Below are positions 13,484 to 17,816 of a stretch of 64,000 bases of DNA, piece after piece. The notes beneath the pieces are model-generated. The model saw only the letters and a list, made by a program, of their open reading frames with translations, did not search any database and was not told the origin of the DNA. Origin of the DNA: Candidatus Wolfebacteria bacterium (GTDB lineage: Bacteria > Patescibacteriota > Minisyncoccia > UBA6257 > UBA9933); contig JANLIR010000002.1 of NCBI GenBank assembly GCA_024654025.1, positions 101,639 through 165,638 on the forward strand. Direction: 5' to 3'. The position numbers and the translations under genes were made by a program. How positions within the stretch are numbered: the stretch's first letter is position 1; each line of letters starts with the position of its first letter.

Positions 13484-15304
13484 CTAGTTAATTTCTATGT
13501 ATCTTTCTTCGTCGTCCAGCGGCTGGCCGCCGACAAATTCCACAAACTGCGGCGGGATTTCATAAAGAAACCTCGAGGGTAAATTATAAAAATTCAAATA
13601 AAGATCATTTCTCGCCCGAGTCATCGCCACATACATCAATCGCCTTTCTTCTTCTATCTCGTCGCCGCTTGAATAAGACATTTGATGAGGCAACAACCCT
13701 TCGTTACAGCCAATCACAAAAACTTCGTCAAACTCCAAACCTTTTGCCAAATGAACAGTCATTAAATTAACGTGGACATCCGCGGTTTGCGCCGAATCTT
13801 TATTATCCAAAGGCCCCAAAAGCGAAACTCTTTCTAAAAAATCTCCCAAACTTTTAAAATTGGCGGCGAAATTCATTAACTCTTCTATGTTCTCCCGCCG
13901 TTCTTTGAAATTCAGATAACTTCTTTCTAAATATCCGAAGTAATCGGATGTTTTGATAATATAGCCAATCACTTCAAGCGGAGAAACATTTTCTGATTTT
14001 TGAGGAAGGTTTTTTTTAAACTCCAAATATATCTTTTTGTTAAAGTTCTTTTCCAAGCGCTCCAAGCTGACGCTATCCTTGGGATTTAATCCGTATCTTA
14101 ATCCCGCGACAATGTCTTTAATTTCTTTTCTTTCATAAAACCTTAATCCGCCGAAAATCCGGTATTTAATTTCGTTTTCAATAAGCGCTTGCTCAATCGC
14201 CCGCGACTGGCTGTTTGTCCGGTAAAGTATTCCTACACTTTTAGGTTTATTATTGGAAAAATTCAATTTGGAATTTATAAGCGTCGCGACATAACTTGCT
14301 TCAAAATCGGAATTCTCATGTTCGATTATTTTTATTAACTCCCCGTCGCTGTTTTCAGTCCATAACGTTTTTGGCCGTTGATATTTATTATTCGCCACCA
14401 CCGCAGAAGCGGCTTTGATGATATTTCCGGTCGAGCGATAATTTTGTTCGAGTAAAACCACTTTCGCACCCGGCCAATCGCGGTCAAAATTCAAAAAATT
14501 CCTGAAATCGGAAAAACGGAATTTATATATTGACTGCTGATCATCGCCCACCACGCTGATATTATTATGGCTTTGCGCCAACAGCCGGACAAAATGATAC
14601 TGCGCCGTATTAATGTCTTGATATTCATCCACCAAAACATGTTTTATTTCTTTTTGGTATTTTTTAAAAACTTCTTCCTGCTCTCTAAATAACCGCACAA
14701 CTTTTTCTATCAAATCGTCAAAATCAAACGCGTTATTATTTTTAAGAGCCAATTCGTATTCATTAAAAAGAGCTTTTATAGTCATATCGTAGCTGTCTGC
14801 CGATTCTTCGGTTAAATCAACTAATTCGCTCTTTATCGCCGAAAATTTCCTCTGCATTTGAGGCGCGCTGTATTTTTTACTGTCAAGATTAAAATTTTTT
14901 ATAATTCCTTTAATAACCCGAAGCGAATCGTCACTGTCGTAAATGGTAAACCCGATTGTCCGGCCAAAAAATTTCCCGTCTTTTCTCAAAATTTTAGCTC
15001 CCAAAGAATGAAAGGTCCCGATGAACAAGTTTGTAAATTTATAAGTTTGTAAGTTTTCAGATTTAACCTTATCAACTTGTGAACTTATCAACTTATAAAT
15101 TCTATCCCGCATCTCGTCGGCCGCTTTATTGGTAAAAGTAATAGCAATTATACTCTGCGGTTCTGCTCCGTTTTTAAGCAAATTTAATAACCGGCTTGTT
15201 AGCGTTTTGGTTTTGCCTGATCCTGCTCCGGCAACTATCAAAAGCGGCCCATCTCCATATTCCACCGCCTCTTTTTGAAAAGGATTAAGATCTTTAAAGT
15301 TCAT
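13484..15304 (-). CDS. pcrA: UvrD/PcrA/Rep-family ATP-dependent DNA helicase
   Basis: Walker A AGAGSGKT; motif II VLVDEYQD. Confidence 0.8.
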   Translation of the reverse strand: MNFKDLNPFQKEAVEYGDGPLLIVAGAGSGKTKTLTSRLLNLLKNGAEPQSIIAITFTNKAADEMRDRIYKLISSQVDKVKSENLQTYKFTNLFIGTFHSLGAKILRKDGKFFGRTIGFTIYDSDDSLRVIKGIIKNFNLDSKKYSAPQMQRKFSAIKSELVDLTEESADSYDMTIKALFNEYELALKNNNAFDFDDLIEKVVRLFREQEEVFKKYQKEIKHVLVDEYQDINTAQYHFVRLLAQSHNNISVVGDDQQSIYKFRFSDFRNFLNFDRDWPGAKVVLLEQNYRSTGNIIKAASAVVANNKYQRPKTLWTENSDGELIKIIEHENSDFEASYVATLINSKLNFSNNKPKSVGILYRTNSQSRAIEQALIENEIKYRIFGGLRFYERKEIKDIVAGLRYGLNPKDSVSLERLEKNFNKKIYLEFKKNLPQKSENVSPLEVIGYIIKTSDYFGYLERSYLNFKERRENIEELMNFAANFKSLGDFLERVSLLGPLDNKDSAQTADVHVNLMTVHLAKGLEFDEVFVIGCNEGLLPHQMSYSSGDEIEEERRLMYVAMTRARNDLYLNFYNLPSRFLYEIPPQFVEFVGGQPLDDEERYIEIN

Positions 15305-15352
15305 AATTTAGCTATAAATACTAATTTTACTAATATACGAATTTAACACAAA

Positions 15353-15380
15353 ACAACCCTGCTTTACAGGGTTGTTTTTA
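15353..15380. terminator. Perfect hairpin aacaaccctg-cttta-cagggttgtt flanked by T/A runs (bidirectional terminator)
   Basis: seen in sequence. Confidence 0.5.
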
Positions 15381-15566
15381 AAAAAATTTCTTTTTTAATT
15401 ATTTTATAAATTTAAAGTTAGAAAGAAATCTATTAAAATCACCGCAATCGCCGAAAAACCTTTTGATTTATTCATATATTTATTCTTACTATTTAAATAT
15501 TAATATGATACGCCTTTGCAACTTTGTCTATGCTTTTTTCCTAAGTGTTATGCTAAATCATAACAC

Positions 15567-16022
15567 TTAGGAACGCACATAAACCGTTCCGTATTTGGTG
15601 CGAACTCGCCTTCCCTCTCGCCACTGTTTATACCGATCTTTATTTGAACCCGGCCCTTTGCTATACTTTTTCTTCTTTCGTTCTATTTTACTCCTCTCTT
15701 GATAGCTCCGGTAATGATTTTCCGTTATTGCTTTTTTAATACTGCTGATAGTTTGGAGTGAAAGAAAAAGATCATTGCTAATCTGCCTGTAACTTTTGCC
15801 GGAAATGAAACCTTTTAAAGCGGCGACTCGCATTACAAAATTATGACGCTCATAAGAAGTAGTAAGCAAATCCAGTATCTCTTCGGCTTTTGATATCTTT
15901 TTCCAGCACGCATCTTCCCATTCTTTACGTGACGAATAATTCTCGATTGGCGGTATAACCGCCAATATTTTATCGCTGATACTTTTATCAGCAAAATTAA
16001 CTTCTTTTTCTTTCTTGCCCAT
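15567..16022 (-). CDS. TrpR/YerC-like helix-turn-helix DNA-binding protein
   Basis: Segment ERHNFVMRVAALKGFISGKSYRQISNDLFLSLQTISSIKKAI resembles the TrpR/YerC HTH; basic C-terminal tail. Confidence 0.45.
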   Translation of the reverse strand: MGKKEKEVNFADKSISDKILAVIPPIENYSSRKEWEDACWKKISKAEEILDLLTTSYERHNFVMRVAALKGFISGKSYRQISNDLFLSLQTISSIKKAITENHYRSYQERSKIERKKKKYSKGPGSNKDRYKQWREGRRVRTKYGTVYVRS

Positions 16023-16208
16023 ATTTTACCTATAAATAATAATCATAATAACCGGCTTTATAAACAATAAACTTATTATACCACCGTCGGGCTGTTATGC
16101 TAAATCATAACACTAAAATTTTAATCATTAAATATAAAATAAATTCGGCCTAAGCTAACTGTTATGATATAGCATAACAGTTAATAAACTCGCCGTTATC
16201 TCAACTTT

Positions 16209-16240
16209 CTTAGTTAACTTAGTTAACTAAGTTAACTAAG
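16209..16240. promoter_or_regulatory. trp-operator-like palindromic array cttagttaacttagttaactaagttaactaag upstream of the TrpR/YerC-like gene
   Basis: Repeated AGTTAACT cores resemble the E. coli trp operator ACTAGTTAACTAGT. Confidence 0.4.
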
Positions 16241-16283
16241 AAATTATCGTTTTCAATACCAACATCCACGCTCCTCAACTCAC

Positions 16284-17816
16284 TCACTGCTCCCTGATCC
16301 TATACTGAAACGCTTCGGCCAAATGTCCGGAATTTACTTGTTCCGATTCTTCCAAATCAGCAATGGTTTGAGCGGTTTTTAAAACCCGGTAATACCCGCG
16401 CGCGGAAATAAAAGATTTTTCCAAAATATTTTTCAAAAAATTTTCGGCTTCGTCGTCAAATTCGATATTCTCATCAACTAATTTCGAGGACATTTCCGAA
16501 TTCAACGAAATTTTCAACCCCAGTTTTTCGAATCTCTTTTTTTGAATCGCCCTTATTTTTGTAATTTTCTCCCTTATTTTACGGCTGGAATTTTCTTCCT
16601 TCGGTTTTCGCAAATCTTCCACTTTCACCCTCGGAACTTCTATTTGAATATCGATTCTGTCCAAAAGCGGGCCGGAAATTTTTTTCTGGTAGCGAAAAAC
16701 TTCGTGCGCGCTGCAACGGCACGCCTTTTCATTGTCGCCAAAATATCCGCAGGGGCACGGATTCATCGCCGCTACCAGCGAAAATCTGGCTGGAAATTTC
16801 AAAACATTTTTTGCCCTTGAAATAAAAACATGGCCGTCTTCAAGCGGCTGGCGCAAAGACTCAAGAAGATCGCGGCGAAATTCCGGAATTTCATCCAAAA
16901 ATAAAACGCCCCTGTGCGCCAAGCTTATTTCTCCGGGTTTGGGATTCGAGCCTCCACCGATTATAGAAACCGGCGAAGCGCTATGATGCGGAGTGCGAAA
17001 CGGCCTGTTAACGATAATAAAACTATCTTTTAAAAATCCGGCGGCGCTGTAAATCCTGGTCACTTCTATAACTTCATCGATTGTTAAGGGTGGCAGAATT
17101 GAATTTAACGCTTGCGCCAGCATTGACTTGCCCGCGCCCGGAGAACCAACCATCAGCATATTGTGTCCGCCCGCGGCCGCAATCATTAACGCTCTCTTGG
17201 CGTTTTCCTGGCCCTTAATTTCCGAGATATCAACGCTTCCTTCAAACAAATCAAAATCCAGGTTTGTTTTTTCTTGAAACTTCATCGGTTTTCGCTCTTC
17301 CAAAAAATCTATCAGCTCAATGATATTTGAAACCGCAACTATTTTTATGCCGGCTATCAAAGCTGCTTCACGCGCGTTCGCTTTTGGCAAAAAAACGAAT
17401 TTGAATCCCAAATCTTTCGCCATTTGCGCGACAGAAAGCGCTCCACTTATCGGCCGGAGTCCTCCTTCAAGAGAAAGCTCACCGACAAAAATTTTATCGC
17501 TCGCGTCAAAATTTTTAATTTGATTAGTTGATAAAAGATAACCGAGCGCTATTGCCAAATCATATTGCGATCCGGTTTTTTTTATATCTGCCGGAGCCAG
17601 ATTTATCGTGATTCTTCTATTTTCTTGGTTAGGCGGTTTGATATTAGAATTTTTTAAAGCCGCGTTTACTCTTTCTTTTGCTTCGTTTAACGCTTTATCA
17701 GCCAAGCCCACAATATTAAAAGAGTGGAGACCGACATTTATGTCGGTCTCCACTTCGATTAACTTCGCTTCAATGCCTTCAAGTTCCGCCGAATAAATCC
17801 TTGAGAATGTAGTCAT
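16284..17816 (-). CDS. comM: YifB/ComM-family Mg-chelatase-like AAA+ ATPase
   Basis: N-terminal Lon-like domain; Walker A MLMVGSPGAGKSML; C-terminal ChlI-like region. Confidence 0.8.
   Translation of the reverse strand: MTTFSRIYSAELEGIEAKLIEVETDINVGLHSFNIVGLADKALNEAKERVNAALKNSNIKPPNQENRRITINLAPADIKKTGSQYDLAIALGYLLSTNQIKNFDASDKIFVGELSLEGGLRPISGALSVAQMAKDLGFKFVFLPKANAREAALIAGIKIVAVSNIIELIDFLEERKPMKFQEKTNLDFDLFEGSVDISEIKGQENAKRALMIAAAGGHNMLMVGSPGAGKSMLAQALNSILPPLTIDEVIEVTRIYSAAGFLKDSFIIVNRPFRTPHHSASPVSIIGGGSNPKPGEISLAHRGVLFLDEIPEFRRDLLESLRQPLEDGHVFISRAKNVLKFPARFSLVAAMNPCPCGYFGDNEKACRCSAHEVFRYQKKISGPLLDRIDIQIEVPRVKVEDLRKPKEENSSRKIREKITKIRAIQKKRFEKLGLKISLNSEMSSKLVDENIEFDDEAENFLKNILEKSFISARGYYRVLKTAQTIADLEESEQVNSGHLAEAFQYRIREQ

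What the first reader, a model, noticed from the sequence alone, without database searches (positions are those of the whole stretch)
15539..16240. TrpR/YerC-like regulator flanked by three TGTTATG-N6-CATAACA palindromes and a trp-operator-like TTAGTTAACTAAG array
The 151-aa HTH protein (15567-16022) sits in a 1 kb repeat-rich spacer between uvrD and comM. Perfect palindromes with the same half-site occur three times (15547-15566, 16094-16113, 16159-16180 variant). Further upstream, at 16209-16240, is a triple AGTTAACT array strikingly like the classical trp operator core. This suggests an autoregulated repressor with multiple operators, or operators left behind by a small mobile cassette. There are no trp biosynthesis genes nearby, so its regulon is unknown.
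Basis: partly seen in the sequence, partly recalled or inferred. Interest (0 to 1): 0.5.

Follow-up and report, generated by a model that had tools for sequence, protein, structure and literature searches.

The report
Self-regulating TrpR-like repressor with flanking operators
A small DNA-binding protein of a Candidatus Wolfebacteria (CPR) bacterium sits between 20-bp palindromes that are almost certainly its own binding sites, because across dozens of relatives three amino acids of the protein change in step with specific bases of the palindromes next to each gene.

Summary
The 151-aa ORF (15567-16022, minus strand) has three perfect TGTTATG-N6-CATAACA palindromes around it: 15546-65, 16093-112 and 16160-79. 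Chance predicts 0.15 such sites in the window.

The protein belongs to a small family restricted to CPR/Paceibacteria, with a TrpR-like fold.

In 64 homologous loci the genes are flanked upstream and just downstream by (N)TATG-N6-CATA(N) palindromes. These are about 60-fold enriched next to the gene.

Three residues track operator bases:
- L89, equivalent to TrpR Ile79, tracks positions -8 and -6.
- S94 tracks position -3.
- Residue 108 tracks positions -3 and -2. Arg goes with AC in 68/68 half-centres, Leu with CT, Lys with CC.

Paralogs within one genome carry different residues and different sites.

The proximal upstream palindrome overlaps the -35 element of the gene's promoter, so autorepression is the best reading.

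The downstream operator is conserved, but its role is unresolved. Looping or roadblock are the candidates.

The "trp-operator-like" TTAGTTAAC x3 array is a window-specific 18-nt tandem expansion and is not part of the system.

I found no evidence for a mobile cassette, for terminators or for RNA structure.

Verdict: a new variant of a known kind, of moderate interest.

The parts
15567..16022 (-). Gene for a 151-aa TrpR-like helix-turn-helix protein. It has a helical domain at residues 15-101, a family-specific Y104-R-S-Y107-x108-E-R segment, a basic linker and a C-terminal beta-hairpin (138-149).
   Evidence: ORF. 100% identical to an NCBI protein from Candidatus Wolfebacteria annotated 'trp operon repressor'. 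Pfam Trp_repressor 24.8 bits. AF2 model with pLDDT 81. Foldseek top hits are TrpR. hhalign to E. coli TrpR gives L89=I79, Q90=A80, T91=T81, S94=R84.
16093..16112 (.). Proximal upstream operator, a 20-bp palindrome TGTTATG-ATTTAG-CATAACA on the gene strand. It overlaps the -35 hexamer of the gene's promoter.
   Evidence: Conserved in L065. In relatives the equivalent site is phase-locked to a -10 hexamer.
16156..16183 (.). Distal upstream operator with 11-nt arms (core 16160-16179). Its centre lies 67 bp from that of the proximal operator.
   Evidence: Conserved in L065 and L068, with a compensatory change in the outer arms (AACTG..CAGTT versus GACTG..CAGTC).
15538..15573 (.). Downstream operator with 15-nt arms and a 6-nt centre (core 15546-15565). 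It overlaps the last two codons and the stop codon of the gene.
   Evidence: A downstream site of the same class is present in 41 of the 59 related loci scored with the stricter ATG-N6-CAT criterion. No T-tail follows it. The centre is inverted relative to L065.
16075..16103 (-). Candidate sigma-70-type promoter of the gene: -35 TTAGCA (16103-16098), a 17-nt spacer, and TG-extended -10 TGGTATAAT (16083-16075). The predicted transcription start is near 16068, giving a leader of about 46 nt.
   Evidence: 10 of 12 matches, TG present. Sequence read.
15350..15378 (.). Terminator-like hairpin with a 12-bp stem. On the minus strand TTTTGTGTT follows it. It probably ends the transcript of the HTH gene, 45 nt before the uvrD ATG.
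   Evidence: DNA fold -12.7 kcal/mol, z-score -4.0. The termination function is inferred.
16206..16243 (.). Perfect 38-nt palindrome made of three 9-nt units (TTAGTTAAC). I judge it NOT part of the conserved system. It is a recent tandem expansion.
   Evidence: One unit in L065 and none in L068. AGTTAACT is not associated with other family members.

Best explanation
The ORF encodes a dimeric transcription factor with a TrpR-like fold. The family is restricted to CPR/Paceibacteria. The protein recognises 20-bp palindromes as duplex DNA; in this genome the sequence is TGTTATG-N6-CATAACA.

Each monomer reads one 10-bp half-site:
- The N-terminus of the recognition helix (S88-L89-Q90-T91) reads positions -8 to -4. 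L89 is equivalent to TrpR Ile79.
- S94 and residue 108 read the inner positions -3 and -2. Residue 108 lies in a family-specific Y-R-S-Y-x-E-R segment just after the helix-turn-helix.

The proximal upstream operator covers the -35 region of the gene's own promoter. Occupancy should therefore exclude RNA polymerase, which would give negative autoregulation.

A second upstream operator and a conserved operator at the 3' end of the gene probably add cooperativity. They could do this by looping, or by acting as a roadblock that insulates the gene from its neighbours.

Status of each step:
- Shown by comparative data: the cognate protein-site relationship and the promoter overlap.
- Inferred: repression rather than activation, dimer binding, and the role of the downstream site.
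- Unknown: the ligand and the wider regulon.
For: (1) Palindromes with an ATG-N6-CAT core and arms of 7 nt or more occur at 2.7 per kb within -400/+200 nt of 59 family genes. In the rest of the same loci the density is 0.045 per kb. 33 loci have sites on both sides. With the relaxed TG-N6-CA criterion the count is 37 including the window.

(2) Specificity covariation, taking the majority site per locus:
- Residue X of S-X-Q-T: P goes with CTATG in 28/28 loci, L with [T/A]TATG in 8/8, R with GTATG in 4/4, and S or T with (C/T)T[T/G]TG in 6/6. Fisher p = 3e-8.
- Residue 94: S (17/19 loci) or A (6/8) goes with A at -3, and G or V with C (16/16). Fisher p = 4e-8 for S versus G/V.
- Residue 108: R goes with AC in 68/68 half-centres, L with CT in 49/56, and K with CC in 10/12.
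- An unbiased mutual-information scan of all alignment columns picks L89 for positions -8 and -6, Q108 for -3 and -2 (MI 1.00 bit at -2), and S94 as second-ranked for -3.

(3) The residue/site classes switch about 11 times on a tree built with the specificity residues masked.

(4) Paralogs in one MAG carry different classes, each flanked by its own site type. Non-self sites in a genome match the class of a paralog encoded elsewhere in that genome.

(5) The pairings are chemically sensible: Arg or Lys faces G on the opposite strand, and Leu, Phe or Trp faces T.

(6) hhalign places L89 at TrpR Ile79, Q90 at Ala80, T91 at Thr81 and S94 at Arg84. These are the positions that enter the major groove in the TrpR-operator complex (the structural role is from established knowledge of PDB 1TRO).

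(7) Fold: the top Foldseek PDB hits are all TrpR or TrpR-like (probability 0.99, TM 0.58 normalised to the target). The PDB profile's best hit is 3kor.

(8) Promoter geometry:
- In 20 of 55 upstream sites a -10-like hexamer starts 16-17 nt from the palindrome centre. The antisense and downstream controls show no such peak. In many loci about 6 nt then separate the -10 from the ATG, which suggests leaderless mRNA.
- In the window, -35 TTAGCA lies inside the proximal palindrome and TGGTATAAT follows after a 17-nt spacer.

(9) The centre of the palindrome is itself usually palindromic and is read symmetrically. That fits duplex DNA, not a hairpin loop.

(10) A 20-bp palindromic operator is the family norm for TrpR and HisR (PMC9413887).
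Against: - There is no experimental binding data.
- The window protein itself scores below the Pfam gathering threshold (24.8 versus 27 bits) and far below the NCBIfam TrpR threshold (13 versus 67 bits).
- A plain operator model does not explain why about half of the palindromes stay perfectly complementary well beyond the 10-bp half-site. Arms reach 18 nt in the near-gene set and 21 nt in the first scan. The mean extension is 2.05 nt against 0.34 by chance. Orthologous sites also show compensatory changes in the outer arms.
- The downstream operator has no promoter attached.
- The spacing between upstream and downstream sites shows no helical phasing, so looping is unsupported.
- Several non-self sites lie between convergent genes or away from any start codon, which is atypical for a simple repressor regulon.
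- The covariation statistics are not phylogenetically corrected beyond the parsimony count.
Confidence: 0.78

Rival explanations
1. REP/RAYT-like or IS-like system. The palindromes would be a dispersed, hairpin-forming DNA element family. The flanked gene would encode their cognate processing or mobilising protein, or a domesticated descendant of one. The invariant C-terminal R-T-K-Y-G tyrosine, or the Y-R-S-Y segment, would have a catalytic role.
For: - The gene is flanked on both sides by its cognate palindromes. Class-specific protein/palindrome pairs occur, and several classes can coexist in one genome.
- Extra copies occur in pairs or triplets in intergenic regions, some between convergent genes.
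- Arms are perfectly complementary far beyond the protein-sized footprint, with compensatory changes and no G.T pairs.
- The loop of the downstream palindrome is inverted between close relatives.
- Genomic context varies between lineages. L044 has uvrD and comM adjacent with no gene between them.
- Y104, Y107 and Y144 are invariant or nearly invariant.
Against: - No HUH, transposase or recombinase domain was detected, and the fold is a plain TrpR-like HTH.
- Only the central roughly 20 bp is shared between copies. The outer arms are unique, so the copies are not transposed replicas.
- Density away from the gene is low, about 1 site per 22 kb, and there are none in the other 63 kb of this window.
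- Paralogs within a genome are old (40-60% identity), and the locus is stable across relatives with 76-88% identity.
- The symmetric readout of the palindromic centre indicates duplex binding.
- The upstream site is tied to a promoter.
- No target-site duplications were seen.
Confidence: 0.08
2. The protein is a transcriptional activator or dual regulator rather than a repressor, acting from a site that overlaps the -35 region. This would resemble class-II or MerR-like activation of weak-(-35), extended-(-10) promoters.
For: - The operator replaces or contains a poor -35 element. ATGCTA matches the consensus at 3 of 6 positions in sites with a CTATAG centre (my reading of the sequences listed).
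- The promoters are of the TG-extended -10 type.
- The operator-to-(-10) distance is tightly fixed at 16-17 nt. Fixed spacing is typical of activators that contact RNA polymerase.
Against: - The centre lies at about -28/-29, or about -34 in the window. That is downstream of the canonical class-II position of -41.5 and covers the spacer.
- Characterised TrpR-family members (TrpR, HisR) are repressors (PMC9413887; general knowledge).
Confidence: 0.1
3. The palindromes are RNA-level elements, either intrinsic terminators or mRNA-stabilising hairpins that insulate the gene. On this view they are only coincidentally associated with the protein.
For: The sites sit at gene boundaries. The single strands are predicted to fold stably (-13.7 kcal/mol and z-score -7.4 for the downstream site).
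Against: - No T-tails follow the sites: 6 of 55 downstream and 3 of 56 upstream sites have one.
- No G.U-compatible pairs occur among about 110 helices.
- There is no Rfam match.
- The three-position covariation with the protein sequence cannot be coincidental.
- The centre is palindromic, whereas a loop would not need to be.
Confidence: 0.02

Closest known systems
E. coli TrpR (Trp repressor; PDB 1TRO; Pfam PF01371)
   Same: - Same fold by the top Foldseek hits.
- Same HTH register: L89/Q90/T91 align with Ile79/Ala80/Thr81.
- Palindromic operator of about 20 bp.
- trpR is itself autoregulated from an operator in its own promoter (established knowledge).
   Different: - Sequence similarity is marginal (Pfam 24.8 bits; NCBIfam TrpR 13 versus 67 bits).
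- This family has extra conserved modules: the N-terminal YSSRKEWExACW motif, a Y-R-S-Y-x-E-R segment that appears to read the operator centre, a basic linker with an RGRP (AT-hook-like) motif in most members, and a C-terminal beta-hairpin.
- The operator sequence is different.
- Operators lie on both sides of the gene.
- There are 1-4 orthogonal paralogs per genome.
- No trp genes lie nearby, and the ligand is unknown.
HisR (YerC of Bacillus subtilis), a TrpR-family histidine repressor
   Same: TrpR family, with 20-bp palindromic operators that have lineage-specific consensus sequences (PMC9413887). The best PDB sequence hit, 3kor, is a S. aureus TrpR-like protein of this type.
   Different: - HisR controls his biosynthesis and uptake genes, and none are present here.
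- The family profile recovers only 279 clusters in 1.84 billion representatives. It is therefore a separate narrow clade, not the broad YerC/HisR family.
- The self-flanking operator architecture is not described for HisR.
REP elements with their RAYT (TnpA_REP) genes
   Same: A single-copy gene flanked on both sides by its cognate palindromes. Protein class and palindrome class are matched. Extra copies lie in intergenic regions, often as doublets.
   Different: - RAYTs are HUH Y1 transposases that act on ssDNA hairpins. This protein is an HTH that reads a palindromic duplex.
- Only the roughly 20-bp core is shared between copies.
- Copy number is low.
IS1 InsA / IS-encoded HTH repressors
   Same: A small HTH protein that binds sites at both ends of the segment carrying its own gene, and represses a promoter embedded in one of those sites (established knowledge).
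   Different: - There is no transposase partner.
- The sites are self-palindromes rather than a pair of terminal inverted repeats.
- There is no sign of recent mobility.
Multi-operator looping repressors (LacI O1/O2/O3, GalR, DeoR)
   Same: One operator at the promoter, plus auxiliary operators tens to hundreds of bp away, including beyond or inside the coding region.
   Different: No oligomerisation domain has been identified. No helical phasing was detected between the upstream and downstream sites.

Membership tests
TrpR family (Pfam PF01371 Trp_repressor) | Sequence match to the family HMM above the gathering threshold | tested here: inconclusive
   The window protein scores 24.8 bits against a cut-off of 27, with E = 2.4e-5. 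113 of 120 close relatives match at E <= 1e-3, best 1.7e-9. hhalign to E. coli TrpR gives probability 86% and E = 4.8e-6 over 49 columns.
TrpR family (Pfam PF01371 Trp_repressor) | TrpR-like all-helical fold with an HTH (helices D and E) | tested here: met
   The AF2 model has pLDDT 81, with 90 or more over residues 21-100. The top 13 Foldseek PDB hits are TrpR or TrpR-like, with probability up to 0.99, TM 0.55-0.58 normalised to the target, and rmsd 2.7-4.0 A over 74-78 residues. Foldseek E-values are weak at about 0.2.
TrpR family (Pfam PF01371 Trp_repressor) | Binds a palindromic operator of about 18-20 bp, with the N-terminus of the recognition helix as specificity determinant | tested here: met
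   Tested by comparative inference only. The residue equivalent to TrpR Ile79 covaries with operator positions -8 and -6. There is no biochemical test.
TrpR family (Pfam PF01371 Trp_repressor) | Intertwined homodimer whose DNA binding depends on a small-molecule corepressor | not testable with these tools
   Only a monomer could be modelled. T55, E58, R59 and R65 align with TrpR T44, E47, R48 and R54, but R84 is replaced by S94. The ligand is unknown.
TrpR equivalog (NCBIfam TIGR01321) / regulator of trp genes | Equivalog-level sequence match, with trp or aro genes in the regulon | tested here: not met
   13.2 bits against a cut-off of 67.25. No trp genes lie near the gene in the window. Neighbours across 64 loci are unrelated housekeeping genes.
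HisR (YerC) subfamily | Orthology to B. subtilis YerC, with operators upstream of his genes | tested here: not met
   The family profile retrieves only a narrow set of 279 clusters. The best PDB relative, 3kor, has E = 0.003. No his genes were seen next to sites.
REP/RAYT or IS200/IS605 (HUH Y1 transposase with flanking hairpins) | HUH motif and Y1 transposase fold (Pfam Y1_Tnp) | tested here: not met
   No such Pfam hit was found in the window protein or in 120 relatives. The fold is an HTH.
REP/RAYT or IS200/IS605 (HUH Y1 transposase with flanking hairpins) | Gene flanked by cognate palindromes, with many dispersed near-identical copies | tested here: inconclusive
   Flanking is met. Dispersed copies exist but are sparse, about 1 per 22 kb, and share only the 20-bp core.
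Intrinsic (Rho-independent) terminators | G+C-rich hairpin followed by a T-run on the transcribed strand | tested here: not met
   Only 6 of 55 downstream and 3 of 56 upstream palindromes have 5 or more T in the next 8 nt. In the window an A-run follows the downstream palindrome on the gene strand.

The most novel reading that the evidence does not exclude
The protein-palindrome pairs are more than operators. They would form a CPR-specific system in which a TrpR-fold protein works on long, perfectly self-complementary DNA. The DNA would act as extruded cruciforms or hairpins, or the protein would maintain or propagate the palindromes, much as RAYTs do with REPINs. Either version would explain the arms of up to 21 nt, the compensatory changes in the outer arms, the loop inversion, the site-gene-site layout, the copies between convergent genes, and the invariant C-terminal RTKYG tyrosine.
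Probability: 0.07. Interest if true: 0.8.

Novelty: new variant of a known kind. Interest (0 to 1): 0.5.

Why it matters
CPR/Patescibacteria have very few recognisable transcription factors, and almost nothing is known about their gene regulation.

This family offers three things:
- A defined factor and operator, which makes regulons in uncultivated Paceibacteria predictable from sequence.
- A natural three-position recognition code (residues 89, 94 and 108 against operator positions -8/-6, -3 and -2). It can be tested directly by residue swaps and could be used to build orthogonal repressors.
- Evidence that a segment outside the helix-turn-helix reads the operator centre, which has not been described for TrpR.

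It also corrects the database label 'trp operon repressor'. No link to tryptophan was found.

Tried and rejected
- Intrinsic terminators: no T-tails.
- RNA structure or a known RNA family: no G.U-compatible pairs, and Rfam matches are all far below their thresholds.
- DNA looping tested by helical phasing of upstream-downstream distances: no periodicity at 10-11.5 bp. Inconclusive.
- Mobile, phage or defence origin: no relatives in IMG/VR and no PHROG or PADLOC hit.
- The AGTTAACT array as a conserved operator: absent or single in relatives.
- Conserved synteny as a clue to function: comM-gene-uvrD is kept only in close relatives. The commonest neighbour elsewhere is an uncharacterised Zn-ribbon protein of about 590 aa, present in 9 of 64 loci, with no Pfam hit and no copy in the window.
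- Metagenome-wide scan for TGTTATG-N6-CATAACA: dominated by chance or unrelated matches. Only about 8 of 120 loci look genuine, and one of them carries the gene. No regulon could be derived from it.
- Exact look-up of the window protein's contig: not on record.
- A -10 element next to the downstream sites, in either direction: none.
- Literature: no description of this CPR family was found.

Full report
**1. Observation**

The window is from a Candidatus Wolfebacteria (CPR/Paceibacteria) genome. The ORF product is 100% identical to an NCBI protein annotated 'trp operon repressor'.

The ORF 15567-16022 (minus strand, 151 aa) lies in a 979-nt gap between uvrD and comM, both on the minus strand.

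TGTTATG-N6-CATAACA occurs exactly three times in 64 kb, at 15546-65, 16093-112 and 16160-79.

- 15538-15573 has 15-nt arms and overlaps the stop codon.
- 16156-16183 has 11-nt arms.

The TTAGTTAAC x3 array (16209-16240) is real and forms a perfect 38-nt palindrome at 16206-16243.

**2. The protein**

- Pfam Trp_repressor scores 24.8 bits against a cut-off of 27. 113 of 120 relatives match the same model.
- NCBIfam TrpR is far below its threshold.
- An AlphaFold2 model built from 120 sequences (pLDDT 81) shows helices over residues 15-101, a low-confidence basic linker and a C-terminal beta-hairpin at 138-149.
- The best Foldseek PDB hits are all E. coli TrpR or TrpR-like proteins, with probability up to 0.99 and TM 0.58 normalised to the target.
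- hhalign places L89, Q90, T91 and S94 on TrpR Ile79, Ala80, Thr81 and Arg84.
- The family is narrow. Only 279 clusters at 50% identity reach E <= 1e-3 among 1.84 billion representatives.
- All named hits are Paceibacteria-type CPR bacteria: Wolfe-, Lipton-, Brenner- and Jorgensenbacteria.
- Beyond the TrpR core, the family has conserved modules: YSSRKEWExACW at the N-terminus, Y104-R-S-Y107-x-E-R, a lysine-rich linker, RGRP in most members (AT-hook-like, which is my inference), and R-T-K-Y-G-T-I-Y at the C-terminus.

**3. The palindromes belong to the gene family**

I examined 64 homologous loci from GTDB species representatives. Nearly every gene is flanked upstream by one to three palindromes of the form (N)TATG-N6-CATA(N), and within about 100 nt downstream by another.

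- The density is 2.7 per kb near the gene and 0.045 per kb elsewhere in the same loci.
- 33 loci have sites on both sides. With a relaxed core the count is 37.
- In the close relatives L065 (88% identity) and L068 (76%), the comM-gene-uvrD arrangement and the palindromes are conserved. Outer-arm changes are compensated, for example AACTG...CAGTT versus GACTG...CAGTC.

**4. Protein-DNA covariation, the key result**

- The residue before the invariant Q-T of the recognition helix predicts the half-site:
  - P goes with CTATG in 28/28 loci.
  - L goes with [T/A]TATG in 8/8 loci, including this window.
  - R goes with GTATG in 4/4 loci.
  - S or T goes with (C/T)T[T/G]TG.
- Residue 94 (S or A versus G or V) predicts A versus C at position -3. 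Fisher p = 4e-8.
- An unbiased mutual-information scan of all alignment columns against each operator position recovers L89 for positions -8 and -6. It also reveals residue 108 as the best predictor of positions -3 and -2.
- For residue 108, R goes with AC in 68/68 half-centres, L with CT in 49/56 and K with CC in 10/12. These pairings are chemically sensible, because Arg or Lys faces a guanine on the other strand and Leu, Phe or Trp faces a thymine.
- On a tree built with the specificity residues masked, residue and site classes each switch about 11 times.
- Paralogs in one MAG have different classes, each next to its own site type. Examples are WY2.bin82, Jorgensenbacteria GWB1_50_10 and Liptonbacteria 1185.
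- Stray sites in a genome match the class of another paralog of that genome.

This is strong comparative evidence that the protein reads these palindromes. The symmetric, usually palindromic centre indicates that it reads them as duplex DNA.

**5. Promoter context**

The upstream proximal palindrome is phase-locked to a -10-like hexamer. In 20 of 55 sites the hexamer starts 16-17 nt from the palindrome centre. Antisense and downstream controls show no such peak.

Often only about 6 nt separate the -10 from the ATG, which suggests leaderless mRNAs. The operator centre then lies near -28/-29.

In the window, the best promoter candidate has its -35 (TTAGCA, 16103-16098) inside the proximal palindrome. 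Its TG-extended -10 is at 16083-16075 and the leader is about 46 nt.

Occupancy should occlude RNA polymerase, so negative autoregulation is the most likely mechanism. E. coli trpR is autoregulated in the same way (established knowledge). Activation from this position is not excluded.

**6. What remains unexplained**

(a) The downstream operator is conserved, but its role is unclear.
- It has no associated -10 element in either direction.
- It has no T-tail.
- Its distance to the upstream site shows no helical phasing.
- Looping or a roadblock remain inferences.

(b) About half of all sites stay perfectly complementary beyond the 10-bp half-site.
- Arms reach 18 nt in the near-gene set and 21 nt in the first scan. 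The mean extension is 2.05 nt against 0.34 by chance.
- The outer sequences are unique to each site.
- No G.T pairs were seen.
- The 6-nt centre of the downstream site is inverted between the window and L065.
- These points suggest hairpin or cruciform formation, at least as a mutational process such as quasi-palindrome correction. Selection for such structures cannot be excluded.

(c) Non-self sites exist in CPR contigs, but they are sparse.
- Pairs occur near tyrS, infB, ligA and perM.
- One site lies 25 nt upstream of a Zn-ribbon gene.
- Some lie between convergent genes.
- The density is about 1 per 22 kb, and the rest of this window has none.
- The regulon is therefore small and undefined.

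**7. The 'trp-operator-like' array**

TTAGTTAACTAA resembles the trp operator core CTAGTTAACTAG at 10 of 12 positions (operator sequence from memory of PDB 1TRO).

However, L065 has a single unit at this position, L068 has none, and no other family locus carries AGTTAACT near the gene.

It is a recent 18-nt tandem expansion and not part of the system.

**8. Rivals**

- A REP/RAYT- or IS-like system shares the gene-flanked-by-cognate-palindromes layout. It lacks support from any catalytic domain, from shared full-length repeats, from copy number or from recent mobility.
- Terminator or RNA explanations fail.

**9. Verdict**

This is a TrpR-like autoregulator with multiple operators.

The trp-operator array and the mobile-cassette suggestion are not supported.

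Relative to known systems, this is a new variant of the TrpR family. It is restricted to CPR bacteria, has extra DNA-reading modules, has a site-gene-site architecture, and has orthogonal paralog classes with a legible recognition code.

YerC is HisR, with 20-bp palindromic operators (PMC9413887). I found no description of this family in the searchable literature.

Noticed in passing
window 17723-17754: Perfect palindrome with 15-nt arms and a 2-nt loop (AGTGGAGACCGACATTTATGTCGGTCTCCACT), inside the 5' part of the comM coding sequence. It is unrelated in sequence to the TGTTATG sites.
   Followed up: no
window 15302-15320 and 16020-16038 (minus strand): The 19 nt ending in the ATG of uvrD and of the HTH gene follow the same pattern, TATTTATAG[C/G]TAAA[T/A]TATG. 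These are the only two matches in the window. They form part of a 32-nt direct repeat at 81% identity, spaced 718 nt apart. This could be a shared translation-start or leader motif, or a trace of a local duplication.
   Followed up: partly
L020:4413-7982, L039:5523-7322, L052:2980-3621 (related loci): A Zn-ribbon protein of about 590 aa (MxxETKxCQNCKxxFxIExxDFxFYKKIxVPPPTxCPxCR...) has no Pfam hit. It is the commonest neighbour of family members (9 of 64 loci, often in tandem copies). In L020 a family-type palindrome lies 25 nt upstream of its ATG. The window has no copy.
   Followed up: partly
L001-L064, upstream regions of family genes: Many family genes appear to be leaderless. A TAnAAT-like hexamer ends about 6 nt before the ATG, with no Shine-Dalgarno sequence in between. 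The window gene instead has a leader of about 46 nt.
   Followed up: partly
window 15546-15565 versus L065 (downstream palindrome): The 6-nt centre is inverted between two close relatives (ATTTAG versus CTAAAT on the gene strand) while the arms are identical. This is the signature of an inversion mediated by the palindrome arms.
   Followed up: partly
window 15350-15378: Hairpin with a 12-bp stem flanked by A- and T-runs, resembling a bidirectional terminator, only 45 nt upstream of the uvrD start codon. uvrD may therefore depend on read-through or on a very short promoter region.
   Followed up: no
L044:300-470 and L044:3880-4500: In this more distant relative, uvrD and comM are adjacent with no HTH gene or palindrome between them. 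The family gene lies about 1.6 kb away beyond dksA, on the opposite strand. It appears to carry an in-frame stop, so it may be a pseudogene or an assembly error.
   Followed up: partly
L028 versus L029; L049 versus L050: Between related genomes the operator centre changed from ACATGT to ACGCGT in both the upstream and the downstream site of the same gene. Outer-arm substitutions are mirrored on both arms. The sites flanking one gene therefore evolve in concert.
   Followed up: no
L037:257-278 and upstream: A second family paralog, cut by the contig end, lies divergently about 2 kb from the first. It has its own CTGTG-type palindrome and a -10 hexamer in the leaderless geometry.
   Followed up: no
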